Below are positions 3,423 to 60,768 of a stretch of DNA of 64,000 bases, in pieces. The DNA comes from Abditibacterium sp. (GTDB lineage Bacteria > Armatimonadota > Abditibacteriia > Abditibacteriales > Abditibacteriaceae). Position 1 is the stretch's first letter. Each line of letters opens with the position of its first letter. The notes under the pieces were generated by a model. It searched no databases, was not told where the DNA came from, and worked only from the letters and a program-made list of their open reading frames with translations. A program made the position numbers and the translations under genes. The stretch covers positions 896,001 to 960,000 of the forward strand of contig CBDASK010000003.1 in the NCBI GenBank assembly GCA_965199495.1. The letters run 5' to 3'.

Positions 3423-4391
3423 ATGGAATATTTAAATTTGGGCAATAGCGGATTGAAAGTTTCGCGGCTCTGCTTGGGCTGCATGACTTATGGCGTGCCT
3501 TCGCGCGGCAACCACGAATGGACTTTGCCCGAAGACAAATCGCGCCCGTTCATCAAAGCGGCGTTGGATGCGGGCATCAATTTTTTCGATACGGCGAACG
3601 TTTATTCCGATGGCACCAGCGAAGAGATCGTCGGGCGCGCATTGCTTGATTTCGCGCCGCGCGACGAAATCGTGCTGGCGACCAAAGTTCATGGCCGTAT
3701 GCGCCCCGGCGCCAACGGCGCCGGATTATCGCGCAAAGCCATCTTCGCCGAAATTGATGCGAGCCTCCAACGCCTGGGCACCGACTACGTGGATTTGTAT
3801 CAGATTCACCGCTTCGATGCAGCCACGCCGCTCGAAGAGACGCTCGAAGCGCTGCACGATGTCGTGAAAGCGGGCAAAGCGCGCTACATCGGCGCCTCTT
3901 CGATGTGGGCGTGGCAGTTCGCCAAAGCGCTGTTTCTCCAAGATAAGCACGGTTGGACGCGCTTTATTTCGATGCAAGATCATTATAACTTGCTCTACCG
4001 CGAGGAAGAACGCGAAATGTTCGGCCTGTGCGCCGACCAAAACATCGGCGTGATTCCGTGGAGTCCTTTGGCGCGCGGTCGTTTAACTCGCGCGTGGGAC
4101 GAGCAAACCGAACGCGCCCAAACCGACGAATTCGGCAAGACGTTGTATCATTCGTCGGATAAACCCATCGTCGAAGCCGTGGCCCGCATCGCCGAGGAGC
4201 GCGGCGTTTCGCGCGCGCAAGTCGCCCTCGCGTGGATGTTGAGTAAGTCGGTCATTACCGCGCCAATTATCGGCGCCTCGAAGTTGGCGCACTTGGACGA
4301 CGCCGTGGCTGCTCTGGAGTTGAAGCTAAGTCAGGATGAGATTAAAGCGCTCGAAACGCCCTACGCGCCGCATAAAGTCGCGGGTTTTTGA
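3423..4391 (+). CDS. Aldo/keto reductase (YajO-like)
   Basis: GINFFDTANVY, LGTDYVDLYQIH and PWSPLARG motifs. Confidence 0.95.
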   Translation: MEYLNLGNSGLKVSRLCLGCMTYGVPSRGNHEWTLPEDKSRPFIKAALDAGINFFDTANVYSDGTSEEIVGRALLDFAPRDEIVLATKVHGRMRPGANGAGLSRKAIFAEIDASLQRLGTDYVDLYQIHRFDAATPLEETLEALHDVVKAGKARYIGASSMWAWQFAKALFLQDKHGWTRFISMQDHYNLLYREEEREMFGLCADQNIGVIPWSPLARGRLTRAWDEQTERAQTDEFGKTLYHSSDKPIVEAVARIAEERGVSRAQVALAWMLSKSVITAPIIGASKLAHLDDAVAALELKLSQDEIKALETPYAPHKVAGF

Positions 4392-4709
4392 GAGTGACTC
4401 AAATTGTCGCACTTTTACAAATTTGAGAATAAATCTAATGATTTTTTCTTGAACATTGTCCGTTCTTCAATTCATTTCTTCGTGTTGGAAATGAAATTTA
4501 CCGGTAAATTGTCGCTGTTCCAAATTTGAGCCTCGCTTTGAAAGTGGCCATGATCTTCCCATCGTTGGGCTTTTTGTCTGAATCCGCTATATTGATGATT
4601 GAGTTGGCAGACTCTTATTAATTTATCTGCCCAATAATAGTGACAGTGGCGGCATACGATAGAGATAACCGTTATCTTTCGCTATTTCAATTGAAAAAGG
4701 AGAATCATC

Positions 4710-5861
4710 ATGGCTGAGAGTAGAGACACCGAAATCAGAACGCGCGAGTTCATCGAGATCGTGCCACCGGCACCGATTGCTCGCGCCGAACCGTTGAGCC
4801 TGCGCGCTGGATCGCTATCGCTCGCAGATTCAAAACTAAAGTCAGCGCCAACGCCAGCACCGGATTTGGGGCCGCTTCAAGCGTTGCTGGGAATTTGGCG
4901 CGGACAGGGCACGGGCTGGAACATGATCGCGCTGCCCTTTTTTAAGGCGCCAGCGCCGCCCGCAGGGTTCAAATATCGGGTGTTGATGAACCAATACGAT
5001 GAGGAGCTTCAAGTCACTTTCGTCGACAGCAACGTTCCCAATCGCGGCCTGAAACGGCCCGGACTTTCTGGTGGTTCGGATCAGTTCACCGTGACACTTG
5101 ATTACCAGCAGAAGATCGCTCAAGTTGTGGCGGAAGACCGGCCTGATAGCAACGGGCTTGCGGGCGATCCGGGACTACCGATTCATCACGAACCCGGTTT
5201 GTGGCTTTATGCCAAAAACCGCGTCACTAACGATGATCATCTCGAAGCCAACAAAGTGTCGGAGGTTCCGCTCGACATCGCGCGCCTCGCTTCGATACCG
5301 CACGGCAATTCCGTGCTCGCTCTTGGCACATCCGCACATCACGAAGGTATGCCGGAGATTCCGCCTTTAAGTGGGTTTCCGTCGGGGCGTTTCGAGGACG
5401 TGAAGACTCCAGACTACGACTTCAAGTCTGATCCGTATCTCGCCCCGTTCAAGCATTACGTGGATGCTCCTTTCATGGGAAACGTCGCAGTTCCCGGATT
5501 CCCTGGATTTAACCCGGCGGATATGAACGAGATCCTTCGTTTCGCCAATCAAGGCGTCAAAGTGGTGAAAACGACGACTTTGACTGTGGACACGGCGCGA
5601 CAAAGCGGCGGCATTTCAAGCGTTCCGTTCTCGGTTCGAGAGGCCGAGCCGGTCAGTATGAAATCCACGTTTTGGATTCAGGAACTCGACGAAAAAGACG
5701 AGCAAGGCCAACCGAGAATGCGGCTGCAATACTCGCAAGTCGTCATGCTGGAGTTCTTCAATCCCCGGCAAGACGAGTTTCCGGGCCGCGCCATCTGGCC
5801 GCATATCAGCATCGCGACACTGGAAAAAGTTCCGGCGCAATACAAGCTCGTGGCTGCTTGA
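4710..5861 (+). CDS. Putative heme-binding beta-barrel (nitrobindin/FABP-like) protein
   Basis: AAGGAG RBS; LGPL..LLG.W.G, IHHEPGLWL, RLASIPHGNS, LQYSQ and WPHISIATL.K motifs. Confidence 0.6.
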   Translation: MAESRDTEIRTREFIEIVPPAPIARAEPLSLRAGSLSLADSKLKSAPTPAPDLGPLQALLGIWRGQGTGWNMIALPFFKAPAPPAGFKYRVLMNQYDEELQVTFVDSNVPNRGLKRPGLSGGSDQFTVTLDYQQKIAQVVAEDRPDSNGLAGDPGLPIHHEPGLWLYAKNRVTNDDHLEANKVSEVPLDIARLASIPHGNSVLALGTSAHHEGMPEIPPLSGFPSGRFEDVKTPDYDFKSDPYLAPFKHYVDAPFMGNVAVPGFPGFNPADMNEILRFANQGVKVVKTTTLTVDTARQSGGISSVPFSVREAEPVSMKSTFWIQELDEKDEQGQPRMRLQYSQVVMLEFFNPRQDEFPGRAIWPHISIATLEKVPAQYKLVAA

Positions 5862-5872
5862 TGTCTGACCAA

Positions 5873-6038
5873 CTCACCTTACGCAGTTGAGTGTGGTAGC
5901 GAGGTTTGGAGTGGGCACGTAAGTGCCTGAGAAAGTTGTAATCGCTCAACGTAAGCGAAAAGCGAGGGCGAATTTACCTTTCAGGCACTTACGTGCCCAC
6001 TCCAAACCTCGCTACCACACTCAACTGCGTAAGGTGAG
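5873..6038. mobile_element. MITE-like palindromic element C (58-bp perfect arms, 50-bp spacer, 7-bp flanking direct repeat)
   Basis: 5873-5930 is the reverse complement of 5981-6038; flanked by TGACCAA at 5866-5872 and 6039-6045; inner GGAG plus GGCACGTAAGTGCC hairpin. Confidence 0.85.
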
Positions 6039-6107
6039 TGACCAATCCAAATAGGGAGCGGAAGTCACGATTTCGCTCCTTATTTAGCGGGATTGTTTGA
6101 AGAGAAT

Positions 6108-7544
6108 TCAAACGACTTTCGCTTTCCATTTGCCGCGCCGAAACAGCGTCGCGCTTAGAATTGCTAAAACCGAAAAGGCGACCATAATCGCCCAGAAAAC
6201 GCCGTTTGGCCCCAGTCCGAAATGGTAGGACAAAATGTAGGCGAGTGGGATTTCCACGATCCAGAAGCAGAAAAGATTGAGATAAGTCGGCGTCCACGTA
6301 TCGCCCGCGCCGTTGAAGGCGCCTTCCAAAACCATGCCAAAACCGTAGAACAAAAAGCCCAACGAAACGATATGCAGCGCGCTGGCGCCATATTTTAGCA
6401 CGGTTGGGTCAGTGCCAAACCAGCCGACGATTTTGGTTCCGAAGACCAATAAAATCAGGCCGACGAAACTCAGAAAAGTCGCATTGATAATGGCCGCGCG
6501 CCACACCGAAGCCTCGGCGCGTTCGGATTTATTGGCGCCCAAATTCTGGCCGACCAAAGTCGAAGCCGCATTACTCAAACCGGCGGCGGGCAAAATCACG
6601 AACATGATCACGCGTAATCCGATAACATAACCGGCGATGGCTTCGCTGCCAAACCCGGCGACGACGCGCACCAAAACACTCCAACTCGCGGTGCTAATGA
6701 TGAGCTGAAAAATCGCGGGCGCCGCGATACGAATTAAATTCGATGCGATCTCGCGGTCGAACTTCCAGTGCGGCTTTTTGATCGTGATACGCCCTTTTGC
6801 GCGCAGCAAATAAGACGCGGCCAGCGCAACGCCGACGCCACGCCCGATAGTCGTGCCGACTGCCGCGCCCATCACATTCAAACGCGGGAATGGCCAATTA
6901 TGGAGCAGCCACGCCGGGGGACTGAGATGCAAAACGCCGAAAATATCGGGGCCGAACACGAAACAGGGCGATAGAAAAATGTTGATTAAGTTGGCACAAA
7001 ACAACACGCGCATCGCCACCGAAGCATCGCCCACGCCGCGAAAAATCGCGTTGAGCAGAAACAGAAACACGATAACGAAATTGCCGCCCAGCATGATGCG
7101 CGTGAACGGCACGCCCATTTGAATCACGTTTGGCTCGGCGCCCAGCGCGCGCAAAAATTGTGGCGCAAAGGTAATTCCAACCGCGCTGAGAATCAGGCTG
7201 ACCGCAACGCCCAGATAAATCGCGTGCGCCGCGCTTTTGGCGGCGCCTTCGGGATCGTTTTCGCCGGTACGCCGCGAAACCGTCGCCGTCGCGCCAATAC
7301 TCAAACCGATGCCCAACGCGAACACAATCGCCAGCATGGATTCGGTCAGCCCGACAACAGCCACGGCGTCGGCGCCCAGATGCGAAACGAAAAAAATGTC
7401 CACTATGCCGAAGATGCTTTCCATCATCATTTCCAGAACCATCGGCACGGCCAGCAGAAATATCGCCGCCCCAATTGAACCCGTCGTGAAATCGCGCTCC
7501 GATCCAGCGAAAGCCTCTTTCCATATCTTCCAATAACGTTTCAT
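6108..7544 (-). CDS. MATE family efflux transporter
   Basis: About 12 TM segments; LA.P...VD.FFV.HLG, RGVGD and VGQNLGA motifs. Confidence 0.95.
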   Translation of the reverse strand: MKRYWKIWKEAFAGSERDFTTGSIGAAIFLLAVPMVLEMMMESIFGIVDIFFVSHLGADAVAVVGLTESMLAIVFALGIGLSIGATATVSRRTGENDPEGAAKSAAHAIYLGVAVSLILSAVGITFAPQFLRALGAEPNVIQMGVPFTRIMLGGNFVIVFLFLLNAIFRGVGDASVAMRVLFCANLINIFLSPCFVFGPDIFGVLHLSPPAWLLHNWPFPRLNVMGAAVGTTIGRGVGVALAASYLLRAKGRITIKKPHWKFDREIASNLIRIAAPAIFQLIISTASWSVLVRVVAGFGSEAIAGYVIGLRVIMFVILPAAGLSNAASTLVGQNLGANKSERAEASVWRAAIINATFLSFVGLILLVFGTKIVGWFGTDPTVLKYGASALHIVSLGFLFYGFGMVLEGAFNGAGDTWTPTYLNLFCFWIVEIPLAYILSYHFGLGPNGVFWAIMVAFSVLAILSATLFRRGKWKAKVV

Positions 7545-7568
7545 ATTTTATACAAACGCGTTCGTCCT

Positions 7569-7651
7569 GTAGAGACGCTGATTTATCGCGTCTCAAACGC
7601 TGGAGTTGCGGTATTTCAGACGTTTCAGACGCGATAAATCGGCGTCTCTAC
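7569..7651. repeat. REP doublet, GTAGAGACGCCGATTTATCGCGTCT family, copy 1
   Basis: Two inverted GTAG plus hairpin units; same unit at 31778 and 58881. Confidence 0.9.
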
Positions 7652-7665
7652 GGACGCGTGAAATA

Positions 7666-8061
7666 TCAACTCAAATCCAAATAAGGATTCCACGCGATTT
7701 CCCATACGAAACCATCGGGATCGGCGAAAAATCCGTGATAGCCGCCCCAAAACGCGTCTTGCGCTGGTTTGAGGATTCGCGCGCCCGCGCGTTGCGCGAC
7801 TTCTAAAACCGCTTCGACTTCGGCTTTATCTTTCACGTTATGCGCGAGCGTGAATCCGCCAACGCCCGGCGCCGTGGCTGCATTGGCGTCACGGTTTAAT
7901 TCGTCGCGCGGAAACAGCGAAAGCCACGCGCCGCGCAACCGAAAAAACGTCACGCCCTCGAAATCGCCTTGCGTCGGAAAGCCCAAACCGTCGCGATAGA
8001 ATTGCGTCGAACGTTCCAAATCGGAAACGCCCAGCGTAATCATGCTGATATAAGGTTGCAT
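7666..8061 (-). CDS. VOC/glyoxalase family protein
   Basis: ITLGVSDLERS..FY and FWGGY.GFFADPDG.VWEI motifs; ATG at 8061. Confidence 0.92.
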   Translation of the reverse strand: MQPYISMITLGVSDLERSTQFYRDGLGFPTQGDFEGVTFFRLRGAWLSLFPRDELNRDANAATAPGVGGFTLAHNVKDKAEVEAVLEVAQRAGARILKPAQDAFWGGYHGFFADPDGFVWEIAWNPYLDLS

Positions 8062-8154
8062 CGTTAGAGTTTGACAGCAGGAAAGAACATCCTGCACGAT
8101 TTCGCGGCCCCACATCAATTCGCAAAACAAAAGCGTCTGTTCCAAAGTCATGGC

Positions 8155-8511
8155 TCATTCATAATGCGCGCACGCACGAACAACTTGGCCGCTTTCGTCG
8201 AAGAAAAATATTTCGGTCGCCAAAACGCCGCGCGCGCCTTGATAATAAATAATCAGACTGTTCACGCCGCGAAACACGGCGCGAAACTCGAAATGTAAAT
8301 CGGGCAATTTTTCCAAAGCCGCGCGCCAATACGCAGCCACGGCGGGCTTGCCGCGCAATTTTCCCGACGGCTCGCCCGTTATTGTCACGATATGCGGGCT
8401 GCTCATCTCGAAATCTGGGGCGTAGTGCGCCAAAACGCGGTCGAGATCGCGCGCGTTCCACGCCTCAATCCATTCGCGCGCCCACTGTTGCGCGGCGTCT
8501 TGATTCATCAT
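8155..8511 (-). CDS. SnoaL/NTF2-like protein
   Basis: WIEAWNARDLDRVLAHY motif; ATGA overlap with the upstream gene. Confidence 0.85.
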   Translation of the reverse strand: MMNQDAAQQWAREWIEAWNARDLDRVLAHYAPDFEMSSPHIVTITGEPSGKLRGKPAVAAYWRAALEKLPDLHFEFRAVFRGVNSLIIYYQGARGVLATEIFFFDESGQVVRACAHYE

Positions 8512-8984
8512 GGCGCGATTCTCCATTGCTCGCTCAACTGCGCCATTGCCGCCGGATCGAAATGGTCTTGGTCGTCGCCCAGCAACGTTTGCAAATACGC
8601 GATCTGACCGCCGTGATGAATCACGTCCACGACAACGGCAGTGGAGATAAAATTGTTAGAAATCCCGTATTCGGCGGAGAAAATTTCGCCCAATTTCGCG
8701 GCGGACGCCGCGCGCAATGCCGACGTGAAACGCGCGCCGATTTCGGTCAGACTCTGCTGCGCTTCGTCGCCGTTGGCGACGGGCACGAAATCGCGCTTTT
8801 CTCCGTCCAGACTGTCGCAAACTCCATTAACGAAAGCCGCCAGATGATTGACGATTTCCAACGCCGACTTCGCTGTGGGCGCGGGTCTCCAATCGAGTTT
8901 GTCGGCGGGAAGTAGGCCGAAGTTGAAGATCAGATTTTTGAGGTTGCCCTCGAACAGCGTAATTAAAGTTTCTTTGTTAAGCAT
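8508..8984 (-). CDS. DinB family protein
   Basis: WRP....KSALEIVNHL and HHGGQIAYLQ motifs. Confidence 0.8.
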   Translation of the reverse strand: MLNKETLITLFEGNLKNLIFNFGLLPADKLDWRPAPTAKSALEIVNHLAAFVNGVCDSLDGEKRDFVPVANGDEAQQSLTEIGARFTSALRAASAAKLGEIFSAEYGISNNFISTAVVVDVIHHGGQIAYLQTLLGDDQDHFDPAAMAQLSEQWRIAP

Positions 8985-9011
8985 TTTGGTTCCTTGATGA
9001 TGTGCCACTAA

Positions 9012-9302
9012 TTAACGGCTCTTAGTTAAGTTTGCCTCTCTATTCAAAATCGCGCTCGTCGCGCCCAGCGCCTGTGCCACGACGTGGCCGCGTCGGGGCG
9101 CCACGAAACTCTGGCCCGCGCGCAACACGAAATCGCGCGCCTCGCCGCTTTGCGTGAGCCAGATCACGCCGTGCCCGCAACGAACGCGCTCGCCCACGTT
9201 CAATTGCGCGCTCCAAACTTGGCGCGGTTGCAGCGTGATTTCGCGGCAATTGGCGCGGCAGATGCGTTGCGGCAACGCAAGGCGAAGCGGAAAAATGTTC
9301 AT
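9012..9302 (-). CDS. DUF2917-like protein
   Basis: G.IWLTQSG..RDFVL.AG motif; divergent from the MocR regulator. Confidence 0.75.
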   Translation of the reverse strand: MNIFPLRLALPQRICRANCREITLQPRQVWSAQLNVGERVRCGHGVIWLTQSGEARDFVLRAGQSFVAPRRGHVVAQALGATSAILNREANLTKSR

Positions 9303-9469
9303 GGCACGACCTTGAGTTAGCGACAAATCGGCGCGCCATAACAGAGACAAAGCTGTCGTATTGTAACCGCAACAGTGAGAATTTTTGCGCGCTGTTCCGG
9401 TCGTTTACCGGCGCTTCTGTGCCTTAACTTGCCCTGAGGTTGGCGGTAACCTTTGTGGCGGAGGTTTTC

Positions 9470-10930: not shown

Positions 10931-10947
10931 CAGACTCTCAGAAAAAT

Positions 10948-11948: not shown

Positions 11949-11953
11949 AAATT

Positions 11954-52652: not shown

Positions 52653-52704
52653 AGAAAAGCAAAAGAACCGTCGTGACCCGCGCAGTTCCGCGATAAAACC
52701 AACT

Positions 52705-52998: not shown

Positions 52999-53189
52999 AA
53001 ATAAAAAAAACGGGAATTTTAAGTATCCGAGATTCTCGCGACAATTCCAACGCCGCCAGAATTTGGCGGCGTTGCATGAAAGTGAAATTCGGTAGATAAA
53101 GCCGACCTATAACGCGAAATAGCTGCAATGACAACAGCCAATACTCGCGTTAGACCAAAGCGCTTGCGGTTTATACTTGAACCTTGCTT

Positions 53190-54254: not shown

Positions 54255-54269
54255 ACAGCAGCCACGCCC

Positions 54270-54309
54270 AAAAAAGCCGCGATAGAAATGAATCTATCGC
54301 GGCTTTTTT
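54270..54309. terminator. Bidirectional terminator
   Basis: AAAAAAGCCGCGATAGA-N6-TCTATCGCGGCTTTTTT between convergent genes. Confidence 0.88.
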
Positions 54310-54320
54310 AGCGGTTCAAA

Positions 54321-54731: not shown

Positions 54732-54772
54732 GTTGTTACTCCTGTTGTGTCTGTCGTCTCACATTTGTCGTC

Positions 54773-55273
54773 TTACTGAACGCTGAAAACGCTGTCCAAA
54801 CCTTTGCCGGTTGTCGCGCCATCATAACCCTGCCAGCCCTGATAAGTGCTCGCCTGATCGGCGGGAACTTGCACCTGCTGAATCTGGTCTCTTGGCGGCG
54901 TCACGAAGTGCGCCTGATGCGTTTTTGGATCGCGGTAGTAAACCCGGCCTGTTGACTTGGAAACGTAATACTGCACGTTTTGCGCGGCATTGGCTTGTCC
55001 CTCTTTGCTCTTCTCGTATTTCTTATAAAGATAATACGCGGCGGCGGCTCCAGCCAAGATTTTGAGTTTGGTGCCAGTACTCATGCCCTGCTTGGCGGCG
55101 GGTGCCGACTGGGGTGCCATCTGGCCGGGCCCATCCGTGACGGGCGGCGGCGGAGCCGATGCTTTGGAACCGCAACCGACCAAAGGAACAGTCATGGAAG
55201 CGATAACTGCGACCCCGCCAAAGCGCCACAGCAAAGTCGGCGCGGAAAAGGTTCGTAGGGAAGGTGATTTCAT
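54773..55273 (-). CDS. Hypothetical lipoprotein
   Basis: Lipobox LVGC; LAGAAAAYYLYKK and YYVSK.TGRVYYRD. Confidence 0.75.
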   Translation of the reverse strand: MKSPSLRTFSAPTLLWRFGGVAVIASMTVPLVGCGSKASAPPPPVTDGPGQMAPQSAPAAKQGMSTGTKLKILAGAAAAYYLYKKYEKSKEGQANAAQNVQYYVSKSTGRVYYRDPKTHQAHFVTPPRDQIQQVQVPADQASTYQGWQGYDGATTGKGLDSVFSVQ

Positions 55274-55317
55274 TTAGTTTTCTCCGTTGAAGTTAAATTG
55301 TGCAGCGCCAGCAAAAA

Positions 55318-55333
55318 TGCAAAGCCCGTGCCC
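55318..55333 (-). promoter_or_regulatory. Sigma54-type promoter
   Basis: GGGCACGGGCTTTGCA (GG-N10-GC), 45 bp upstream of the ATG. Confidence 0.65.
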
Positions 55334-55463
55334 GAAAAATAACACAGTGATAAACCCGGATTAAGAAAAAACACAATTTATCTCGACAGATATTGAGTTC
55401 GGGCGCGATAAATCGGCCCGGAGCGCCGACAAATGATAAATTAGGAACGTCCCTTTTTCGATC

Positions 55464-56483
55464 ATGCGTTCTCTCAACTCTTCCCCTCAGCCCGAATTAT
55501 CGTCTTCATCGCCTACCGCTCGCGTCTCCGGTCTGCGCGTGGCTCTTGCTGTCGTCGGCGTTGGAGTGGGCGCGTTGGCCGCGCTGAACGCCATTATCGC
55601 GGCGCGCGTTCCGCAACAGGGGCCGCGTCTGGGCGGACAATTCGACCGCTATCCCGCGCGCTATGCCGATTTAGCCTATGTCGTCGGCGGTAGCGGTTCG
55701 CCGTTACTATTGCTTCATGGTTTGGAGCCGGGCCGCTCGATGGCCGAATGGCGCGCGGTCTTCGAGCCTTTGTGCGCACATCACACGGTTTACGCGTTCG
55801 ATTTTCAGGGTTGCGGCCTGTCCGACACCACGCCCGAAGGTTATAACGTGGAAGACTTCGCCGAACAAATCGTCCATTTTATCCATGATGTCATCGGCAA
55901 ACCAACCGTGGTTTTGAGTGCGGGCCAGAGCGCCGCTTCAGCAATTTTGTCGGCGAGTCGCTCCGACTTGATCCCAAAAATCGCGCTGATTTGTCCCAAC
56001 GCGCCGGACGCGCCCGCGCCCGAATCGCGCGCCGAAGCCCTCGCTCTGGATTCGATAGCCACCAGCGTTTTGAGGGCGCCCATCATCGGGACGGCGGCGT
56101 TGAATTGGTGGCGTAGCGCCGCCCAACTGCGAAAGCGCGCGCGCGAACACAGCTTCTACAATAAAGACGAGGCGGATCGCGAGGCCAAATTGTGGCACTT
56201 GACCGCGCATCAAAAGGGCGCGCAAAACATTCAAAAAGCGCTTTTGCAAGACGCCTTTGCCTTCGATTGGCGCGCTATATGGGAGCAGACAAACGCGCCC
56301 GCGTTGCTGATATGGGGACGCAACGCCATGAGTCAGGGCTTCGATTCCTCGCCCGAATGGCTGGCCCTGCGCCCCGATGTTCAACTCGCCGTTGTGGAAG
56401 AAGCCATGCTGTTTCCCCATCTCGAACAGCCGGAGCGCTTCTGCGAAATCGTCGAAAACTGGATCGGCAAGTCGAGCGATTAG
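55464..56483 (+). CDS. Alpha/beta hydrolase fold protein
   Basis: PLLLLHG, VYAFD..G.G.SD and PHLEQPERF motifs; no canonical GxSxG nucleophile. Confidence 0.8.
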   Translation: MRSLNSSPQPELSSSSPTARVSGLRVALAVVGVGVGALAALNAIIAARVPQQGPRLGGQFDRYPARYADLAYVVGGSGSPLLLLHGLEPGRSMAEWRAVFEPLCAHHTVYAFDFQGCGLSDTTPEGYNVEDFAEQIVHFIHDVIGKPTVVLSAGQSAASAILSASRSDLIPKIALICPNAPDAPAPESRAEALALDSIATSVLRAPIIGTAALNWWRSAAQLRKRAREHSFYNKDEADREAKLWHLTAHQKGAQNIQKALLQDAFAFDWRAIWEQTNAPALLIWGRNAMSQGFDSSPEWLALRPDVQLAVVEEAMLFPHLEQPERFCEIVENWIGKSSD

Positions 56484-56521
56484 TTCATCTTACACCGTTG
56501 CTTTATCATAGAATTTCCTCC

Positions 56522-56682
56522 CCATTTTGTCATTTTGAGCGGCGTGAGGCGTCGGGTGCGTAGCCGAAGGGACGAAGTCGAAGAATTCATCCCTTGGAAT
56601 CGAGGCAAAAGCGAAACCAACGGGCCACCGGTGGATTCTTCGACTTCATTCATACCTCACGCCGCTCAAAATGACAAAATGG
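56522..56682. repeat. Palindromic element of the TGTCATT(C/T)TGAGCGG family, copy 2
   Basis: 28-bp outer arms at 56522-56549 and 56655-56682; inner GAAGTCGAAGAAT / ATTCTTCGACTTC as in element E. Confidence 0.85.
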
Positions 56683-56848
56683 TGGGCTAAATCACTCGGA
56701 TCAACTCAGGTTGATTAATCATGCTTTTGGCGGAGTCGATATAGCCAAATGCTTGGTAACAAACCCAACAAATATTGACAATATGTGTTTTATCGCCCTA
56801 TAAAAGGCGTGTTCATTGCATATAAAGAAAAATTATCTCTTGTTAGTT

Positions 56849-58867
56849 ATGAATAATTTTTCGTCCTCGCCACACTCTATCCCTCAGTCATTCGAGCCGC
56901 AAAATTTGAGTCCTATTACGCTCGACATCGTGGCCGCGCCGACACTGGCGCGCTTGCAGGATGTCGCGCTACGCGGCGCGCTTGCTCTGAGCGAGGCGCG
57001 CGAAGGCGTTTTGACGTTGCGCGGCGATAGTTTCGAGGCGCCGGGTGCAGCCACGTCGCGCGAATCGCAGACTTTGCATATCGGTGAAGACGGTCGCGCG
57101 CGCGCGGGTAGCGAAAAAGCGCTGTCGGTGAGCGGGCGCGGCTGGAAAAAATGGCCGCTCGTCTGGGATGGCAGCGATTTGGGGCAACTTTCGCTACGCT
57201 GGGAAAACGACGATTGCGAGGCGCCCAAATCGCTCGAAATGTTGTGCGCTCACGTTGCAGCCACCGCCGCAAAAACACGCTTATTCGAGCAGTTGCAAAA
57301 CATCAAATACGAATGGCAGGCGATGCTCGACGGCATGATTGACGGCGTTTATGTTTGCGATCAGAACGGCAAAATTTTGCGCGCTAACCGCGCGTTGGCG
57401 GCGATTTTAGGCGTTTCGATTCCCGATGTTCTGGGCGGCACGCGCGACGAATTGTGGGCGCGGCTACCCGACTATTCCGTGACGCATCCGTGGCAAGAAT
57501 TGGAAGTGGGGCCGACGCATTTGTCGCCGCAAATGACCGAGTTTCGTTGCGGTCAGCCCGACCGCGTTTACGTCGAAATGGCGTTCGAGCTGAAAGCGCG
57601 CGACGACGCGTTCGATAATTCTCACACCAACGGCGAAACAGTGGGCGAAACGTCCAACAAGAATCCACAGCGCGAAGAACGCCGTTTGTGCGTGTTGCAT
57701 GACGTCACCGAAAGTCGGCGCTTGCAAGAACAGTTGCTGCAATCGGAAAAATTGGCCGCGCTGGGCGAACTCACTTCGGGCGTGGCTCATGAACTCAATA
57801 ACCCGCTCGCCACCGTCGTCGGTTACGCCGAATTACTGGCGCTCGACACGCAGTTGCCCGAAGGCGTCAAGCGCAAACTCGCCACGATTCATCAAGAAGC
57901 CACGCGCGCTTCGCATATCGTTTCCAATTTATTATCATATGCGCGCCGCTCGTCGCCGGAAAAATCGTTCGTCAATCTCAATGATGTCATTCAGGCGGCG
58001 CTCGAAATGCGACGTTATCAACTGCAAACCGACAACGTGCGCATCACGACCGATTTATCGGACAAAGCGCCCGCCGTGTGGGGCGACGAGTTGCAGTTGC
58101 AACAGGTTTTGCTCAACATCGTCAACAACGCGGCGCAGGCGATTACCAACTGGCGCGGGTCGGGCGAAATCCGCATTTGGACGCGTTCGGCTACCATGAG
58201 CGGGCGAGCAGCCACGCGCATCATCATCGAAGACAACGGGCCGGGCATCGCGCCCGAACATCTGCGCCGCGTCTTCGATCCGTTTTTTACCACCAAACCG
58301 ACCGGCGAAGGCACCGGATTGGGCATGAGCATCGCGCTGCGGATCATCTCGAATCACGAAGGTTTAATCTGGGCCGAAAGCCGATTGGGGCACGGCGCGC
58401 GTTTTATTATCGAATTGCCGGGCGCGGCGGGCAGCGAAGTCGTTGAAGATTTCGACGACGCGCCCGTGCCGAGCGAAAATCGCGACGAAAACGCTCATAT
58501 CTTGGTGGTGGACGACGAGGAACCGGTCGTCACGCTGATGACCGAGATTTTGCAAATGGACGGTCATCGCGTCACGCCCGCTTTTAATGGCGCCGAAGCT
58601 ATCGCGCTTTTGAACGTGGACGATTACGATTTGATTTTGTCGGATGTGCGCATGCCCGCCGTCGGCGGGCCGACGTTCTTCGAGATTTTGCAGACGACGC
58701 GCCCCGACTTGTTGCCCAAAGTCATCTTCGTCACCGGCGACACGATGAGCGCCTCGACGCAGAATTTTCTGCAACGCGCCGCGCGCCCGGTGCTTTCCAA
58801 GCCCTTCGATCCCGAACGGTTGCAAACAATGGTCGCGGATAATTTACGCCAAACGCGCGATGATTAG
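56849..58867 (+). CDS. Hybrid sensor histidine kinase (PAS-HisKA-HATPase-REC)
   Basis: GVAHELNNP, DNGPGI, FDPFFTTK..G.GTGLG; receiver ILVVDDE and ILSDVRMP. Confidence 0.95.
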   Translation: MNNFSSSPHSIPQSFEPQNLSPITLDIVAAPTLARLQDVALRGALALSEAREGVLTLRGDSFEAPGAATSRESQTLHIGEDGRARAGSEKALSVSGRGWKKWPLVWDGSDLGQLSLRWENDDCEAPKSLEMLCAHVAATAAKTRLFEQLQNIKYEWQAMLDGMIDGVYVCDQNGKILRANRALAAILGVSIPDVLGGTRDELWARLPDYSVTHPWQELEVGPTHLSPQMTEFRCGQPDRVYVEMAFELKARDDAFDNSHTNGETVGETSNKNPQREERRLCVLHDVTESRRLQEQLLQSEKLAALGELTSGVAHELNNPLATVVGYAELLALDTQLPEGVKRKLATIHQEATRASHIVSNLLSYARRSSPEKSFVNLNDVIQAALEMRRYQLQTDNVRITTDLSDKAPAVWGDELQLQQVLLNIVNNAAQAITNWRGSGEIRIWTRSATMSGRAATRIIIEDNGPGIAPEHLRRVFDPFFTTKPTGEGTGLGMSIALRIISNHEGLIWAESRLGHGARFIIELPGAAGSEVVEDFDDAPVPSENRDENAHILVVDDEEPVVTLMTEILQMDGHRVTPAFNGAEAIALLNVDDYDLILSDVRMPAVGGPTFFEILQTTRPDLLPKVIFVTGDTMSASTQNFLQRAARPVLSKPFDPERLQTMVADNLRQTRDD

Positions 58868-58880
58868 GTTTGTAATGCAG

Positions 58881-58979
58881 CCGTAGAAACACCGATTTAT
58901 CGCGTCTAAAACGTGGATGAATCCGCGAACTCTGTGGGAGCCTCAACGTTTTAGACGCGATAAATCGGCGTCTCTACGG
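58881..58979. repeat. REP doublet, GTAGAGACGCC family, copy 3
   Basis: CCGTAGAAACACCGATTTATCGCGTCTAAAACG ... CGTTTTAGACGCGATAAATCGGCGTCTCTACGG. Confidence 0.9.
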
Positions 58980-59049
58980 AGCGAATGCGAATTTGCAGCA
59001 CGAGATTAATGGACTCGCACGTCACGTTAAATGCTTGCGAACCTACAAT

Positions 59050-60768
59050 TTACGCCACGGCATCCGCCGTGGCTGCTTTGTCGTCGGCGACTTCTGCGAC
59101 CGATTGAGTCACGCGATTGCGACCGCGATCTTTGGACATATAGAGCGCTTTGTCGGCGGCTTCAAGAAGTGATTCGCCGTTGGACATACCGACTTCGAGC
59201 GAGGCCACGCCAAAACTGGCAGTGACGGGGCGCTCTGGCCATCGGGTTTTTTCGACGCTTTCGCGTAGACGCTCCGCCAAAATATAGGCGCCTTCGGCAT
59301 CGGTGTTGGGCAGAATTAGCGCGAACTCTTCGCCGCCGTAGCGCGCGAAAAAGTCGGTGGTGCGGATGAGGCTCATCACCGTCTGCGCCAGAGTTTTGAG
59401 CACTTCATCGCCCGCCTGATGACCAAAGTTATCGTTGTAACTTTTGAATTGGTCTACATCGAACATCACGAGGGCAAGCGGTGTGGCGTAACGCTGCGCG
59501 CGCGACCATTCTTCGGCCAGTTTCTCGTTGAAGGCGCGCCGGTTTTTGGCTCCGGTCAAACCGTCGTGAGTGGCCAGCGATTCGAGTTTGCCGTTGGCCA
59601 GCAGCAGTTCTCGTTGCTGCTCGGTCAAAGCGGCGCGCGCGTTTTCGCGCTCGATTTCGCCACCGACCCACTCGGCCATCAGATGCAACAATTCGACATC
59701 GCGCGAGCTAAACGGCTCCGCGCGCGCCTCCAGACCGGCAAACGAAAGCACGCCGAACACGCGGCCCTCGACGTTGACTGGCGCGCCGATATAAGCGATA
59801 TTGTCGTTATGTTCTATGTGCAAGTTGTCGGAGGGCACGCCCGCAGGAGGCAGGTCGGCCAGCCCCAACAATTGTGCTTCGAGCGAGAGCGATCCTTCGG
59901 CGAGTTGCGAGCGCAGAAGCGTCATCGCGGGCCGAATGCGGCGGTCGGGCGACTGCACGAAGAGCGTTTCCAAACGGTCGCCCGCCGCGTCGTCGCACAG
60001 GCGCCCCAAAACGCCAATCGGTAAATTCAAACGCCCGCAACCCATCGCGAGTAACGCCCTCATTTTGGCATCGAGCGTGCGCGCGCGGTCGCCGCCGATC
60101 ACGCCATACAACGCATGCACCGTCTCTTGCGCATTATCCAAATCGCTATTGGCGGTGACCTGTTCGGTGATGTCGTGCAATCCCACGATAACCGACGAAG
60201 GTTTGCGCGCCTCGCCCTGCCGCTTGACCCAGACGCGCGCCTGTTTCAGTTCGCCATCGGCGCGAAACAGGCGCGCGGGCGCGCCAAATTCGGCGCGGTC
60301 GCCATCGAACACGCTCTGCATCCCGACGCGCAAAGCCGTCAAATCGTCGGGATGAAAATGCGACAAACGCTGACCGACCAAATTGGATTCGCCCAAAAAC
60401 TCAAAAAATGGCGCGTTGGCGCGCGTGATTTTTTCGCGACTGTCAACGATGGCGAGCGGAAACGGCACCTCGTCGAACATCTGCCCCGGCCCAATTTCGA
60501 CGGGCGCGGCGGGCGTTTTTTTGAGTGACCAGCCCAAGCCCGCGCCCAGCAGTAACCCGCCAGCCACGGCGCCCAACAAGAGGGGAAGCGGCGAAGGCGT
60601 GGGAGCAACAACCAGCTTTGTTGCCTTCGACTTTGCCGGTTTTTTCGCTCCCGTTTGAGCGTAAACTGCGGGCGAACTCACCATCCATCCCGCTCCGCAC
60701 AACGCGAGGCCAAGCGCAAGGCGCGGGCGAACGCGAAGCGGAAGATACGAACGAGAAATTTGCGACAT
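59050..60768 (-). CDS. Membrane-anchored PAS-GAF diguanylate cyclase
   Basis: DGLTG..NRR, RTTD I-site and RYGGEEF motifs. Confidence 0.93.
   Translation of the reverse strand: MSQISRSYLPLRVRPRLALGLALCGAGWMVSSPAVYAQTGAKKPAKSKATKLVVAPTPSPLPLLLGAVAGGLLLGAGLGWSLKKTPAAPVEIGPGQMFDEVPFPLAIVDSREKITRANAPFFEFLGESNLVGQRLSHFHPDDLTALRVGMQSVFDGDRAEFGAPARLFRADGELKQARVWVKRQGEARKPSSVIVGLHDITEQVTANSDLDNAQETVHALYGVIGGDRARTLDAKMRALLAMGCGRLNLPIGVLGRLCDDAAGDRLETLFVQSPDRRIRPAMTLLRSQLAEGSLSLEAQLLGLADLPPAGVPSDNLHIEHNDNIAYIGAPVNVEGRVFGVLSFAGLEARAEPFSSRDVELLHLMAEWVGGEIERENARAALTEQQRELLLANGKLESLATHDGLTGAKNRRAFNEKLAEEWSRAQRYATPLALVMFDVDQFKSYNDNFGHQAGDEVLKTLAQTVMSLIRTTDFFARYGGEEFALILPNTDAEGAYILAERLRESVEKTRWPERPVTASFGVASLEVGMSNGESLLEAADKALYMSKDRGRNRVTQSVAEVADDKAATADAVA

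What the first reader, a model, noticed from the sequence alone, without database searches (positions are those of the whole stretch)
3819..59076. Highly iterated non-palindromic 9-mer GCAGCCACG: candidate DNA-uptake, Chi-like or methylation-linked signal
Seen: at least 27 exact copies counted by eye. Plus strand: 3819, 6905, 8333, 10984, 12841, 16531, 18119, 18467, 25603, 27542, 29148, 32147, 49768, 54258, 57047, 58208. Minus strand (CGTGGCTGC): 4304, 5849, 7873, 11085, 16019, 18354, 27076, 30108, 37973, 48093, 59068. There are also many one-mismatch copies with a CAGCCACG core, and the motif is often extended to GATGCAGCCACG. A rough base-composition estimate gives only about one copy per window. 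The motif sits in unrelated genes, is read in different frames and orientations (DAAT, VAA, MQPR/PQPR, AWLL), and also occurs intergenically (54258). It uses GCA/GCT Ala codons where GCC/GCG otherwise appear to dominate. I saw none in the IS982. Known: Neisseria DUS, Pasteurellaceae USS, Chi sites and cyanobacterial HIP1 show this kind of frame-independent enrichment, but none has this sequence. Inference: a lineage-specific DNA-level signal. The weak strand bias fits an uptake or methylation-maintained motif better than Chi or KOPS. The orphan secretins and pilin in this window could belong to an uptake machine, but that link is speculative.
Basis: partly seen in the sequence, partly recalled or inferred. 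Interest (0 to 1): 0.88.

Follow-up and report, generated by a model that had tools for sequence, protein, structure and literature searches.

The report
Lineage-specific uptake-signal-like DNA word
A 12-letter DNA word is written about two to three thousand times, on both strands and in every reading frame, into the chromosome of this Abditibacterium and of only its two closest relatives, in the way DNA-uptake 'self' tags are written in Neisseria and Haemophilus, which would be the first such system outside the Proteobacteria if uptake is confirmed.

Summary
All 27 copies of GCAGCCACG lie at the stated coordinates, against 0.81 expected.

What the motif is:
- The 9-mer is part of a longer oriented motif, W-GC-AGCCACG-B-C-G.
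- On the 4.72-Mb chromosome I counted AGCCACGNCG 2913 times (reversed control 107), GCAGCCACGNCG 1350 (12) and the 9-mer 1780 (140).
- It is a DNA-level signal. All six frames are 6-42x above an amino-acid-preserving shuffle, and intergenic copies number 157 against about 6 expected.
- 562 of 1424 Ala-Ala-Thr tripeptides are spelled with it, using the rarest Ala codon.
- It shows no replichore polarity.
- It is about 17x rarer on the plasmid and the phage-like replicon, and absent from integrated mobile DNA.

Where it occurs:
- Among 151 sampled genomes of the phylum, only three Abditibacterium species carry it.
- One of them uses a second dialect, GACACCAGCCACGTCCTA, with 1288 copies, half of them in intergenic hairpin pairs.

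A further finding: copies on the same strand exclude each other out to about 1 kb, while opposite-strand copies do not.

Best reading (0.5): a DUS/USS-like uptake or recombination signal. It is untested and its reader is unknown. This scan has noted similar motifs in other genomes.

The parts
3819..3827 (+). motif copy, GATGCAGCCACGCCG
   Evidence: in gene 3342-4391(+), sense frame 0 (Ala-Ala-Thr)
4304..4312 (-). motif copy, AGAGCAGCCACGGCG
   Evidence: same gene, antisense frame 2 (xVAA)
5849..5857 (-). motif copy, 3' flank off consensus (AGC)
   Evidence: gene 4710-5861(+), antisense frame 2
6905..6913 (+). motif copy, GGAGCAGCCACGCCG
   Evidence: MatE gene 6108-7544(-), antisense frame 1
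7873..7881 (-). motif copy, AATGCAGCCACGGCG
   Evidence: gene 7666-8151(-), sense frame 0
8333..8341 (+). motif copy, TACGCAGCCACGGCG
   Evidence: gene 8155-8526(-), antisense frame 2
10984..10992 (+). motif copy, GCCGCAGCCACGCGC
   Evidence: not in my gene calls; lies in ORF 10864-11703 (APH family)
11085..11093 (-). motif copy, GATGCAGCCACGCCG
   Evidence: same ORF 10864-11703
12841..12849 (+). motif copy, GATGCAGCCACGCCG
   Evidence: no called gene (ORF 12322-13062)
16019..16027 (-). motif copy, ACCGCAGCCACGCGC
   Evidence: gene 15720-16187(+), antisense frame 2
16531..16539 (+). motif copy, TCCGCAGCCACGCCA
   Evidence: no called gene
18119..18127 (+). motif copy, GATGCAGCCACGCGC
   Evidence: gene 17801-18274(+), sense frame 0
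18354..18362 (-). motif copy, GATGCAGCCACGGCG
   Evidence: gene 18252-18776(-), sense frame 0
18467..18475 (+). motif copy, CCAGCAGCCACGCCG; opposite-strand neighbour of 18354
   Evidence: same gene, antisense frame 1
25603..25611 (+). motif copy, GATGCAGCCACGGCG
   Evidence: gene 25519-26601(+), sense frame 0
27076..27084 (-). motif copy, AATGCAGCCACGGCG
   Evidence: XdhC gene 26720-27703(+), antisense frame 2
27542..27550 (+). motif copy, ATAGCAGCCACGGCG
   Evidence: same gene, sense frame 0
29148..29156 (+). motif copy, GATGCAGCCACGGGC
   Evidence: gene 28975-30195(+), sense frame 2
30108..30116 (-). motif copy, GCAGCAGCCACGCCG
   Evidence: same gene, antisense frame 2
32147..32155 (+). motif copy, GATGCAGCCACGCCG
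   Evidence: PadR gene 31949-32299(+), sense frame 0
37973..37981 (-). motif copy, AGAGCAGCCACGTCG
   Evidence: secretin gene 37032-38972(+), antisense frame 2
48093..48101 (-). motif copy, AGTGCAGCCACGGCG
   Evidence: gene 46893-48623(-), sense frame 0
49768..49776 (+). motif copy, CCAGCAGCCACGGCG
   Evidence: RNA ligase gene 49065-50237(-), antisense frame 2
54258..54266 (+). intergenic motif copy, just upstream of a terminator-like hairpin
   Evidence: between the convergent genes 53184-54254(+) and 54321-54731(-)
57047..57055 (+). motif copy, GGTGCAGCCACGTCG
   Evidence: histidine kinase gene 56816-58867(+), sense frame 0
58208..58216 (+). motif copy, CGAGCAGCCACGCGC
   Evidence: same gene, sense frame 0; 1161 bp from the same-strand copy at 57047
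59068..59076 (-). motif copy, AAAGCAGCCACGGCG
   Evidence: GGDEF gene 59050-60768(-), sense frame 0
66..63930 (.). 22 further copies with the strict core CAGCCACG but another letter in place of the first G
   Evidence: start(strand): 66(-), 1793(-), 7358(+), 12363(-), 14997(-), 20739(+), 23191(+), 24705(+), 26586(-), 29268(-), 34741(-), 35591(+), 37307(+), 38938(+), 41939(+), 42662(-), 44378(-), 52601(-), 52762(+), 60561(+), 61154(-), 63923(-). 17 of the 22 carry the 3' NCG.

Best explanation
GCAGCCACG is the centre of a 12-13-bp oriented word, W-GC-AGCCACG-B-C-G. I read it as working like the DNA-uptake sequences of Neisseriaceae (DUS) and Pasteurellaceae (USS).

Proposed mechanism:
- A still unidentified reader in the DNA-uptake or recombination pathway prefers DNA that carries the word.
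- Alleles that happen to contain it are therefore taken up from dead kin and recombined in more often than alleles that lack it.
- Over time this molecular drive writes the word into resident DNA by point substitution, wherever the protein can bear it.
- DNA that arrived recently stays bare.

What is shown:
- the motif and its extent;
- its independence from coding;
- its absence from mobile DNA;
- its restriction to one subclade of Abditibacterium;
- a second dialect in the sister species;
- conservation of sites between the two genomes that share a dialect;
- exclusion between copies on the same strand over about 1 kb.

For: Abundance and anatomy.
- The chromosome holds 1780 copies of the 9-mer, 2913 of AGCCACGNCG (one per 1.6 kb) and 1350 of GCAGCCACGNCG. 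Reversed-word controls give 140, 107 and 12.
- Every one of the commonest non-low-complexity 12-mers of the genome derives from the motif.
- The flank consensus holds in 5 of the 6 frames and in intergenic copies; it is weak in the rarest frame, which has 33 copies.

Not explained by coding.
- Shuffling synonymous codons within each gene gives 41+53 copies, against 787+832 observed (30 shuffles).
- Each frame is 6-42x enriched. Intergenic copies number 157, against 5 for the reversed word and 5.9 under a Markov-3 model.
- 562 of 1424 AAT tripeptides use GCA-GCC-ACG, where 12.8 are expected.
- AAT, VAA and SSH tripeptides are inflated relative to samples of congeners without the motif.

Both strands are used equally, 1469 to 1444, with no polarity.

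Depletion in mobile DNA.
- Density is 0.03-0.04 per kb on the plasmid C1 and the phage-like C2, against 0.617 on the chromosome.
- I scanned 30 proteins from the 7 largest motif-free stretches. They include 4 large serine recombinases, a T4SS coupling protein, TnpB, a phage capsid and portal, and TIR and E2/ThiF/JAB defence genes.
- Density is lowest in the genes with the least typical codon usage: 0.45 per kb against 0.71-0.72 in the middle half.

Lineage restriction and dialects.
- Only G000, G011 and G004 of the 13 species of the genus are enriched, and only these three of 151 sampled genomes of the phylum.
- G004 keeps the core but has other flanks: ACACCAGCCACGTCC occurs 1288 times there, 3 times in G000 and 0 times in G011.
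- At orthologous sites G000 has GCAGCCACG where G004 has CCAGCCACG, at the price of an Ala/Pro change.

Hairpin pairs as in DUS.
- In a 400-kb sample of G004, 94 of 191 CCAGCCACG sites form 47 convergent pairs. Their mean folding energy is -43.7 kcal/mol and their loops vary.
- In known uptake sequences, about half of all copies and over 90% of inverted-repeat copies lie in predicted terminators, and copies in genes favour cheap reading frames (10.1101/2025.10.24.684340, abstract read).
- DUS dialects share a core (PMC3630211, abstract and passages read).

Maintenance.
- 67% of G000 core sites are letter-perfect in G011, against 38% of control 8-mers at 85% overall identity.
- In G004 the figures are 25% against 28%.

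Machinery is present: ComEC in 13 of 13 genomes of the genus, and in G000 also DprA, a ComEA-like protein, a type IV pilus operon and secretins.

[quoted passage not shown] That is the kind of length scale seen in the 1-kb exclusion here.
Against: - No experiment shows competence, or motif-dependent uptake, in any Abditibacterium. My search for the genus name returned 62 papers, of which 15 were listed. None of the listed titles or abstract openings concerns transformation.
- The competence and pilus genes are also present in the congeners that lack the motif, so they do not discriminate.
- No homologue of the ComP DUS receptor (PF16732) was found in 0 of 13 genomes. That search rang in no control genome either.
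- A strong exclusion limited to the same strand is not a documented property of DUS or USS. In my control on 334 unpaired DUS sites from metagenome contigs it was absent at 100-300 bp (24 same to 23 opposite) and only weak at 300-1000 bp (51 to 85).
- A simple uptake model predicts that a nearby copy in either orientation is redundant.
- In G000 the motif is denser in genes (0.40 per kb) than between them (0.23 per kb), and is rarely in terminators. This is the reverse of DUS.
- In G004, 13 of the 43 intergenic hairpin pairs lie between two gene starts by my crude gene calls, so they are not simply terminators.
Confidence: 0.5

Rival explanations
1. The word is an oriented 'self' signal read inside the cell by a machine that tracks along one DNA strand. 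Candidates are a Chi-like regulator of a helicase-nuclease during break repair, or a mark that spares own DNA from a defence nuclease. Selection for coverage of both strands would keep it abundant. In an organism exposed to desiccation, breaks arise anywhere, so no replichore polarity is needed.
For: - The two orientations behave as separate signals. Same-strand pairs are at 0.07-0.35 of expectation below 500 bp and recover by about 1.5 kb, while opposite-strand pairs are at expectation. This is what a reader working one strand and one direction at a time would produce.
- A 1433-aa open frame carries a PD-(D/E)XK nuclease domain, so an AddAB/AdnAB-type enzyme may exist.
- Depletion in foreign DNA and divergence between species are also known for Chi (recalled, not from a call).
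Against: - There is no replichore polarity at all, whereas known Chi and KOPS are strongly polar (recalled).
- RecC was not found.
- The word has 12 constrained positions, and 18 in G004. Chi has 5-8 (recalled).
- The drive is strong enough to respell 39% of all AAT tripeptides with a rare codon and to change amino acids. That is far beyond what is described for Chi.
- Half of the G004 copies sit in long intergenic hairpin pairs, which has no Chi parallel.
- The resident plasmid and phage lack the word, so it does not seem to be needed for survival in the cell.
Confidence: 0.2
2. The word is maintained by a sequence-specific repair or modification bias, the class of explanation discussed for HIP1 in cyanobacteria. 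An enzyme that recognises the word, or near-copies of it, corrects mismatches towards it. The word then accumulates in resident DNA without any DNA uptake.
For: - Accumulation is by point substitution in all frames, and depletion in newly arrived DNA is predicted equally well.
- The motif holds two CpG and the genome is unusually rich in CG runs.
Against: - The word is long and asymmetric, unlike the recognition sites of known methyltransferases or of Vsr-type repair (recalled).
- Its sub-words are not enriched on their own. GCAGCC occurs 3495 times against 8901 for the reversed control, and GCCACG is near control level once the motif copies are removed.
- This model gives no reason for a same-strand exclusion of about 1 kb, nor for hairpin pairing in G004.
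- I did not search for methyltransferase or Vsr genes, so nothing here speaks for such an enzyme.
Confidence: 0.12
3. The word is the conserved arm of a small mobile hairpin element of the REP/REPIN type, moved by a RAYT transposase. The copies inside genes are secondary.
For: - In the G004 sample, 95 of 152 copies of the 12-mer are intergenic. Half of the CCAGCCACG sites form hairpin doublets with conserved arms and variable spacers, spread over all kinds of intergenic region.
- Y1 transposase genes are present in G000, G004 and G011.
Against: - In G000, 1619 of 1780 copies lie inside called genes, in frame, without disrupting them, and often at orthologous positions that differ only by point substitutions. 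Transposition cannot do that.
- Y1 transposases are found in 12 of 13 genomes of the genus, including those without the motif.
- None of 6 loci in G000 and none of 8 in G004 is bracketed by inverted motif copies in the way RAYT genes are.
- The loops and inner stems of the G004 hairpins differ from copy to copy.
Confidence: 0.05
4. The enrichment is a by-product of amino-acid, codon or dinucleotide usage.
For: - Two frames, AAT and xVAA, which encode common residues, hold 1232 of the 1619 copies in genes.
Against: - Shuffles that keep amino acids, codon usage and the codon-junction dinucleotide give 244 copies, against 1619 observed.
- The word uses the rarest Ala codon.
- It is about 27x enriched between genes.
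- Ten congeners show no enrichment; the two sampled, G006 and G012, have similar GC content, 58% and 55%.
Confidence: 0.01

Closest known systems
DNA uptake sequence (DUS) of Neisseriaceae, 12-mer AT-DUS and its dialects, read by the minor pilin ComP (PMC3630211; PMC3868556, search listing only)
   Same: - A 10-12-bp oriented word in thousands of copies, about one per 1-2 kb, on both strands.
- Dialects between related species that share a core.
- Inverted pairs that form hairpins (seen in G004).
- Copies in genes sit in reading frames that are cheap for the protein.
- Depletion in mobile DNA.
   Different: - The sequence is unrelated and the phylum is different (Abditibacteriota/Armatimonadota).
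- No ComP_DUS homologue was found.
- In G000 the word is mostly inside genes and rarely in terminators.
- Same-strand exclusion over about 1 kb is strong here, but at most weak in my DUS control.
- Uptake is untested.
Uptake signal sequence (USS) of Pasteurellaceae, Hin and Apl types (recalled; summarised in 10.1101/2025.10.24.684340, abstract read)
   Same: - A strict short core with graded flanks.
- Two types in sister lineages that share the core.
- Many copies inside genes in preferred frames.
- Accumulation by point substitution.
   Different: - The sequence and the GC-rich composition are unrelated.
- There are no AT-rich flanking segments.
- The receptor is unknown in both cases.
Chi sites (crossover hotspot instigator) of RecBCD/AddAB (recalled)
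   Same: - An asymmetric word read in one orientation.
- Over-represented in core DNA.
- Differs between taxa.
   Different: - No co-orientation with replication.
- 12-18 constrained positions rather than 5-8.
- Far stronger enrichment.
- RecC not found.
HIP1 and other highly iterated palindromes of cyanobacteria
   Same: - Hyper-abundant, independent of reading frame, lineage-specific, with an unresolved cause.
   Different: - HIP1 is a short palindrome. This word is asymmetric and its two orientations behave as distinct signals.
REP/REPIN elements with RAYT transposases (recalled)
   Same: - The G004 dialect forms intergenic hairpin doublets with conserved arms and variable spacers.
   Different: - Most G000 copies are in-frame substitutions inside intact genes.
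- No transposase gene is bracketed by the motif.

Membership tests
DNA uptake enhancing sequences (DUS/USS) | Short oriented word at roughly one per 1-3 kb, on both strands about equally | tested here: met
   AGCCACGNCG occurs 1469+ and 1444- in 4.72 Mb, against a control of 107
DNA uptake enhancing sequences (DUS/USS) | Enrichment beyond amino-acid and codon usage, in several frames and between genes | tested here: met
   All six frames are 6-42x above the shuffle; intergenic copies are 157 against about 6
DNA uptake enhancing sequences (DUS/USS) | Dialects in related lineages that share a core | tested here: met
   G000 and G011 have WGCAGCCACGBCG; G004 has GACACCAGCCACGTCCTA with 1288 copies of the 15-mer
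DNA uptake enhancing sequences (DUS/USS) | Depleted in recently acquired or mobile DNA | tested here: met
   The plasmid and phage-like replicon are about 17x poorer; the motif-free stretches hold recombinases, prophage and defence genes
DNA uptake enhancing sequences (DUS/USS) | Inverted pairs in terminator hairpins | tested here: inconclusive
   In the G004 sample 94 of 191 sites are in hairpin pairs, but 13 of the 43 intergenic pairs lie between gene starts. In G000 only 8 of 68 convergent pairs are intergenic
DNA uptake enhancing sequences (DUS/USS) | The word raises DNA uptake or transformation | not testable with these tools
   This needs uptake or transformation assays
DNA uptake enhancing sequences (DUS/USS) | Competence machinery present (ComEC, DprA, ComEA, type IV pilus, secretin) | tested here: met
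   It does not discriminate: ComEC is in 13 of 13 genomes, and the pilins are in 11 and 12 of 13
DUS of Neisseriaceae (homology) | ComP-type receptor (Pfam PF16732) and a DUS-like sequence with a CTG core | tested here: not met
   0 of 13 genomes match PF16732, though no control genome rang either. The word has no likeness to GCCGTCTGAA
Chi / KOPS-type polar sequences | Co-orientation with replication | tested here: not met
   The cumulative orientation walk has a range of 42, against a random mean of 85
Chi | A RecBCD or AddAB reader | tested here: inconclusive
   RecC was not found. One 1433-aa frame has a PD-(D/E)XK domain
Highly iterated palindromes (HIP1 type) | Palindromic word | tested here: not met
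   The word is asymmetric, and its two orientations have different neighbour statistics
REP/REPIN | Extragenic hairpin copies spread by a RAYT that they flank | tested here: not met
   1619 of 1780 G000 copies are inside called genes. No Y1 transposase locus is bracketed by inverted copies. Y1 transposases are also present in genomes without the motif

The most novel reading that the evidence does not exclude
The word is not merely an uptake tag. It would be a new kind of genome-wide, strand-specific 'self' mark. A so-far unknown machine would read it one strand at a time with a reach of about 1 kb, so that each strand is tiled separately: same-strand copies exclude each other while opposite-strand copies ignore each other.
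Probability: 0.25. Interest if true: 0.9.

Novelty: new variant of a known kind. Interest (0 to 1): 0.72.

Why it matters
Sequence-specific DNA uptake is documented in only two families of Proteobacteria. A system with the same genomic footprint in Abditibacteriota would show that such 'self' tags arise independently, and outside host-associated pathogens. This phylum has very few cultured members and lives on rock, bark and Antarctic soil.

The case is well suited to study for three reasons.
- The signal is young: three species of one genus have it and ten do not.
- It has already split into two dialects with different genomic niches.
- The same-strand exclusion zone is a new quantitative constraint on how such signals are read, and can be tested directly in complete Neisseria and Haemophilus genomes.

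In practice the word marks resident against foreign DNA in these genomes, and could guide binning of metagenomes and the design of transforming DNA for this phylum.

Tried and rejected
- **Codon or peptide artefact:** rejected.
- **Chi/KOPS polarity:** rejected. The GC skew is too weak to place ori and ter, so I used the cumulative orientation walk, which needs no origin.
- **REPIN/RAYT:** Y1 transposases are not specific to the motif genomes and are not bracketed by the motif.
- **Other dialects in the genus:** 400-kb samples of G012 and G006 show no iterated word. G012 has only tandem repeats, and G006 has a repeat of about 85 copies that looks like a CRISPR array. The other 8 motif-less congeners were not sampled for words of their own.
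  - ComP_DUS was found in 0 of 13 genomes.
  - About 44 DUF1559-type pilin-like genes make a candidate-by-candidate test impractical.
  - Two pilins of the pilus operon have orthologues in genomes without the motif. The 618-aa one is only 57% identical between G000 and G011, which share a dialect, so neither stands out.
- **Secretin cluster of the window:** no pilus genes lie beside it.
- **Is same-strand exclusion a DUS property?** My control on 74 metagenome loci (1.08 Mb with overlaps, 334 unpaired sites) was inconclusive.
- **Site-turnover test:** pairs of private sites from different genomes were same-strand in 16 of 37 cases, against 12 of 53 for pairs within a genome. The direction is as expected, but Fisher p = 0.06.
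- **Literature:** a full-text search for the 9-mer gave 252 papers. The 15 listed are primers or unrelated sequences. A search for 'uptake signal sequences' + 'same orientation' + 'spaced' gave 2 papers, neither on this point by title or abstract.
- **Rfam:** nothing in the window.

Full report
**1. The observation**

Dinucleotide-preserving shuffles give 0.81 copies on average (largest 4), and 0 of 100 reach 27.

The window is G000:C3:896001-960000 of a 4.81-Mb assembly. The assembly has a 4.72-Mb chromosome (C3, 55.7% GC) and two small contigs of 24.7 kb (C1) and 64.6 kb (C2). Genome-wide there are 1783 copies: 917+ and 863- on C3, 1 on C1 and 2 on C2. Apart from CG-runs, it is the commonest 9-mer of the genome.

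**2. The organism**

Relatives of a window protein carry titles naming Abditibacterium or Abditibacteriaceae, at 85-91% identity for the nearest. The genome therefore belongs to the genus Abditibacterium (Abditibacteriota, placed within Armatimonadota in some taxonomies).

**3. The real motif**

Aligning the 1780 chromosomal copies shows further constrained positions:
- A or T before the word (78%);
- not-A at +9;
- C at +10 (85%);
- G at +11 (79%).

These hold in 5 of the 6 reading frames and in the intergenic copies. They are weak in the rarest frame, which has 33 copies.

Single-letter variants show that the first two letters are soft. ACAGCCACG occurs 500 times, CCAGCCACG 536 and TCAGCCACG 267, against controls of 24-82. 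Variants inside AGCCACG sit at control level.

| Word | Copies on C3 | Reversed control |
|---|---|---|
| AGCCACGNCG | 2913 | 107 |
| CAGCCACGNCG | 2179 | 33 |
| GCAGCCACGNCG | 1350 | 12 |
| WGCAGCCACGBCG | 1085 | 3 |

The window holds 49 CAGCCACG, 43 AGCCACGNCG and 19 GCAGCCACGNCG.

**4. A DNA signal, not a protein or codon effect**

I made crude gene calls of my own: 3559 genes covering 85% of the chromosome. By these calls the 1780 copies split as follows:

| Location | Copies |
|---|---|
| Sense frame 0 (Ala-Ala-Thr) | 562 |
| Antisense frame 2 (x-Val-Ala-Ala) | 670 |
| The other four frames | 387 |
| Between genes | 157 |
| On gene boundaries | 4 |

- Shuffling synonymous codons within each gene gives 41 sense and 53 antisense copies, against 787 and 832 observed. 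A stricter shuffle that also keeps the third-base/next-base dinucleotide gives 150 and 94 (30 shuffles each).
- Frame by frame, the excess over the shuffle is 6.1x to 41.9x. Intergenic copies number 157, against 5 for the reversed word and 5.9 under a Markov-3 model.
- 562 of all 1424 AAT tripeptides are spelled GCA-GCC-ACG, where codon usage predicts 12.8. GCA is the rarest Ala codon at 6.3%.
- The proteome is shifted. Observed over expected is 1.51 for AAT, 1.54 for VAA and 2.15 for SSH in G000. In 400-kb samples of two motif-less congeners the values are 1.10-1.16, 0.99-1.34 and 0.59-1.34.

**5. Strand and position**

- AGCCACGNCG is balanced between the strands, 1469 to 1444. The cumulative orientation walk spans only 42, against a random mean of 85. 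There is no replichore polarity.
- GC skew is very weak.
- Copies are as often sense as antisense to genes.

**6. Foreign DNA is bare**

- Density is 0.041 per kb on C1 and 0.031 per kb on C2, against 0.617 on the chromosome.
- C1 is a plasmid (RepA, a TraG/TrwB-type coupling protein, ArdC). C2 is phage-like (Mu-type portal, S49 protease).
- The largest motif-free stretches cluster at 415-536 kb, 1119-1256 kb and 4220-4296 kb.
- I scanned 30 proteins of 250 aa or more from the 7 largest stretches. They include 4 large serine recombinases, a coupling-protein fragment, an IS605 TnpB, a phage capsid and portal, a pentapeptide-TIR protein and two E2/ThiF defence-type proteins.
- Density also falls in the genes with the least typical codon usage: 0.45 per kb in the lowest tenth, against 0.71-0.72 in the middle half.

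**7. Who else has it**

- Among 31 relatives the 9-mer is enriched only in G000 (1783, control 141), G011 (1411, control 146) and G004 (972, control 135), all of the same genus. The other 28 genomes are at control level.
- All 13 species of the genus were then searched with CAGCCACGNCG. G000 has 2180, G011 1838 and G004 739. The other ten have 17-59, with controls of 17-48.
- In a sweep of 151 genomes drawn across the phylum, the core CAGCCACG is 8-11x its control only in these three. The next highest are 5.5x (274 against 50) and 4.5x (63 against 14).
- G011 is the closest relative, syntenic at 86-91% DNA identity. G004 is at about 80%, and G001, G003 and G006 at about 70%.

The signal therefore arose in the common ancestor of one subclade.

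**8. A second dialect**

A 400-kb sample of G004 shows the same core with different flanks, consensus GACACCAGCCACGTCCTA.

| Word | G004 (per Mb) | G000 (per Mb) | G011 (per Mb) |
|---|---|---|---|
| ACACCAGCCACGTCC | 302 | 0.6 | 0 |
| GCAGCCACGNCG | 55 | 286 | 256 |
| CAGCCACG | 690 | 653 | 649 |

Over whole genomes the 15-mer occurs 1288 times in G004, 3 times in G000 and 0 times in G011, G006 and G012, with controls of 0.

The niche differs too:
- 95 of 152 copies of ACCAGCCACGTC are intergenic, 6 are on gene boundaries and 51 lie in gene calls in all six frames.
- 94 of 191 CCAGCCACG sites form 47 convergent inverted pairs. There is 1 divergent pair and there are 5 direct pairs.
- The pairs fold into long hairpins with a mean energy of -43.7 kcal/mol. 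Their loops and inner stems vary, and they are often flanked by A-runs and T-runs.
- By my gene calls, 30 of the 43 intergenic pairs follow at least one gene end and 13 lie between two gene starts.

At orthologous positions G000 often has GCAGCCACG where G004 has CCAGCCACG (9 cases: 4 Pro-Ala-Thr and 5 on the other strand). Of 30 in-frame AAT sites of G000 aligned to G004, 17 differ in amino acid, 9 differ only synonymously and 4 are identical.

Samples of G012 and G006 show no iterated word of their own.

**9. Maintenance and turnover**

- In 163 kb aligned between G000 and G011 (85% identity), 67% of 131 G000 core sites are letter-perfect in G011, against 38% of control 8-mers. For the 9-mer the figures are 55% of 67 sites against 34%.
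- In 238 kb aligned with G004 (80% identity), the figures are 25% of 178 sites against 28%, and 18% of 112 against 24%.

Sites are held in place between genomes that share a dialect and are not held across dialects.

**10. Same-strand exclusion**

Same-orientation copies of CAGCCACG (n = 3083) avoid each other. Opposite-orientation pairs do not.

| Distance (bp) | Same strand, observed/expected | Opposite strand, observed/expected |
|---|---|---|
| below 30 | 0.07 | 2.55 |
| 30-100 | 0.13-0.15 | 0.70-0.99 |
| 100-300 | 0.29 | 0.81-0.88 |
| 300-500 | 0.35 | 1.05 |
| 500-750 | 0.54 | 0.97 |
| 750-1000 | 0.78 | 1.14 |
| 1000-1500 | 0.87 | 1.09 |
| beyond 1500 | 1.0 | 1.02-1.08 |

- The excess of opposite-strand pairs below 30 bp reflects palindromic pairs, mostly inside genes.
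- At 100-500 bp there are 128 same-strand pairs against 383 opposite-strand pairs (binomial p about 1e-30).
- Eight control 8-mers of similar abundance have same-strand fractions of 0.49-0.69 at 30-1000 bp.
- The effect holds for pairs within one gene, for pairs in different genes on either strand, and for pairs that include an intergenic copy.
- It recurs in the G011 sample (same-strand fraction 0.06-0.21 at 30-500 bp) and less clearly in G004.
- Known DUS gave at most a weak echo. For 334 unpaired GCCGTCTGAA sites on metagenome contigs the counts are 24 to 23 at 100-300 bp and 51 to 85 at 300-1000 bp (p = 0.004). I rate this control inconclusive, because the sample is small and mixed.
- Treangen et al. 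(PMC2397512, passages read) report that DUS spacing matches conversion-fragment size. They do not treat orientation.

**11. Machinery**

- ComEC is present as a single intact gene in 13 of 13 genomes of the genus. G000 also has DprA and a ComEA-like HHH protein.
- The window holds three tandem secretin genes at 35314-40789. Their neighbours are PadR/HAAS-type genes and a response regulator, not pilus genes.
- A type IV pilus operon lies at G000:C3:861065-876728. It encodes an MshE-type ATPase, a platform protein, a prepilin peptidase, four pilin-like proteins and a 1366-aa protein of no known family.
- Two of its pilins have orthologues in 11 and 12 of the 13 genomes, so the operon does not track the motif.
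- No ComP_DUS domain was found, though the search had no positive control.
- RecC was not found.

**12. Reading**

Six features match the defining genomic footprint of DUS and USS: abundance, frame independence, strand balance, depletion in mobile DNA, dialects with a shared strict core, and hairpin pairs. My sources for that footprint are PMC3630211 (abstract and passages read) and 10.1101/2025.10.24.684340 (abstract read).

I therefore take an uptake- or recombination-linked molecular drive as the most likely mechanism (0.5). It is analogous to DUS and USS, not homologous: the sequence is unrelated and no ComP was found.

That can be fitted to a strand- or direction-specific uptake and recombination tract. 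It equally allows an intracellular machine that tracks along one strand (0.2). A repair- or modification-driven bias (0.12) and a REPIN-like element (0.05) fit less of the data. A compositional artefact is excluded.

**13. Context in this scan**

Earlier notes of this scan describe comparable lineage-specific iterated words in other genomes. I did not test them. Another calls a separate piece of this genome a phage, which fits C2.

**14. Limits**

- My gene calls are crude: they use ORFs and codon usage only, and some real genes are missed.
- G011 and G004 were sampled (270 kb and 400 kb), except for the whole-genome pattern counts.
- Genomes other than G000 are mostly MAGs of 79-94% completeness.
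- Properties of Chi, HIP1, USS and REPIN that are not tied to a call are recalled.

Noticed in passing
window 27706-27879: A self-complementary intergenic repeat of about 175 bp (MITE-like, with G/C-rich ends around an AT-rich centre). BLAST gave 37 hits in G000, many of them the same locus on both strands. Many partial matches appear in G011 and G004.
   Followed up: partly
window 23370-23720: A dispersed repeat of about 340 bp with copies at 90-92% identity near C3:2238378-2238709 and C3:1772536-1772809, and matches in G011, G004, G003 and G006.
   Followed up: partly
whole genome G000: CG-runs dominate the k-mer table: CGCGCGCGC is the commonest 9-mer with 3093 copies, although the genome is only 55.7% GC. 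The same holds in the G004 and G011 samples. GC skew is almost flat, so ori and ter cannot be placed from skew.
   Followed up: no
window 35314-40789: Three secretin genes in tandem (573, 646 and 581 aa) without pilus or secretion partners beside them. They are preceded by PadR and three HAAS-domain genes and followed by a response regulator.
   Followed up: partly
G000:C3:868592-870448 (L361:8592-10448): The 618-aa pilin-like protein of the type IV pilus operon is only 57% identical between G000 and G011, and 47% to G004. Its 403-aa neighbour is 86% identical between G000 and G011. It looks fast-evolving.
   Followed up: partly
G004:C8, within L091-L110: In one gene-like stretch the G004 word occurs as an 18-bp tandem unit (GACACCAGCCACGTCCCG, several repeats), which would read as a repeated hexapeptide.
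   Followed up: no
G006:C24:1-400000 (L151-L170): About 85 copies of one repeat of roughly 30 bp, which looks like a large CRISPR array.
   Followed up: no
G000 C1 and C2: C1 (24.7 kb) is a plasmid with RepA, a TraG/TrwB-type protein and ArdC. C2 (64.6 kb) is phage-like, with a Mu-type portal, an S49 protease, a 2400-aa protein and a LAGLIDADG-papain fusion.
   Followed up: partly
window 46893-48623 and 49065-50237: A major-royal-jelly-protein (MRJP) family gene, and an RNA ligase with a PHA02142-type OB fold.
   Followed up: no
G004:C3:617000-650000: Several paralogous copies of the xanthine-dehydrogenase-type genes of the window lie in a region of G004. In the part of the list that was shown, no plus-strand copy of the G004 15-mer appears between 575627 and 672144.
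   Followed up: no
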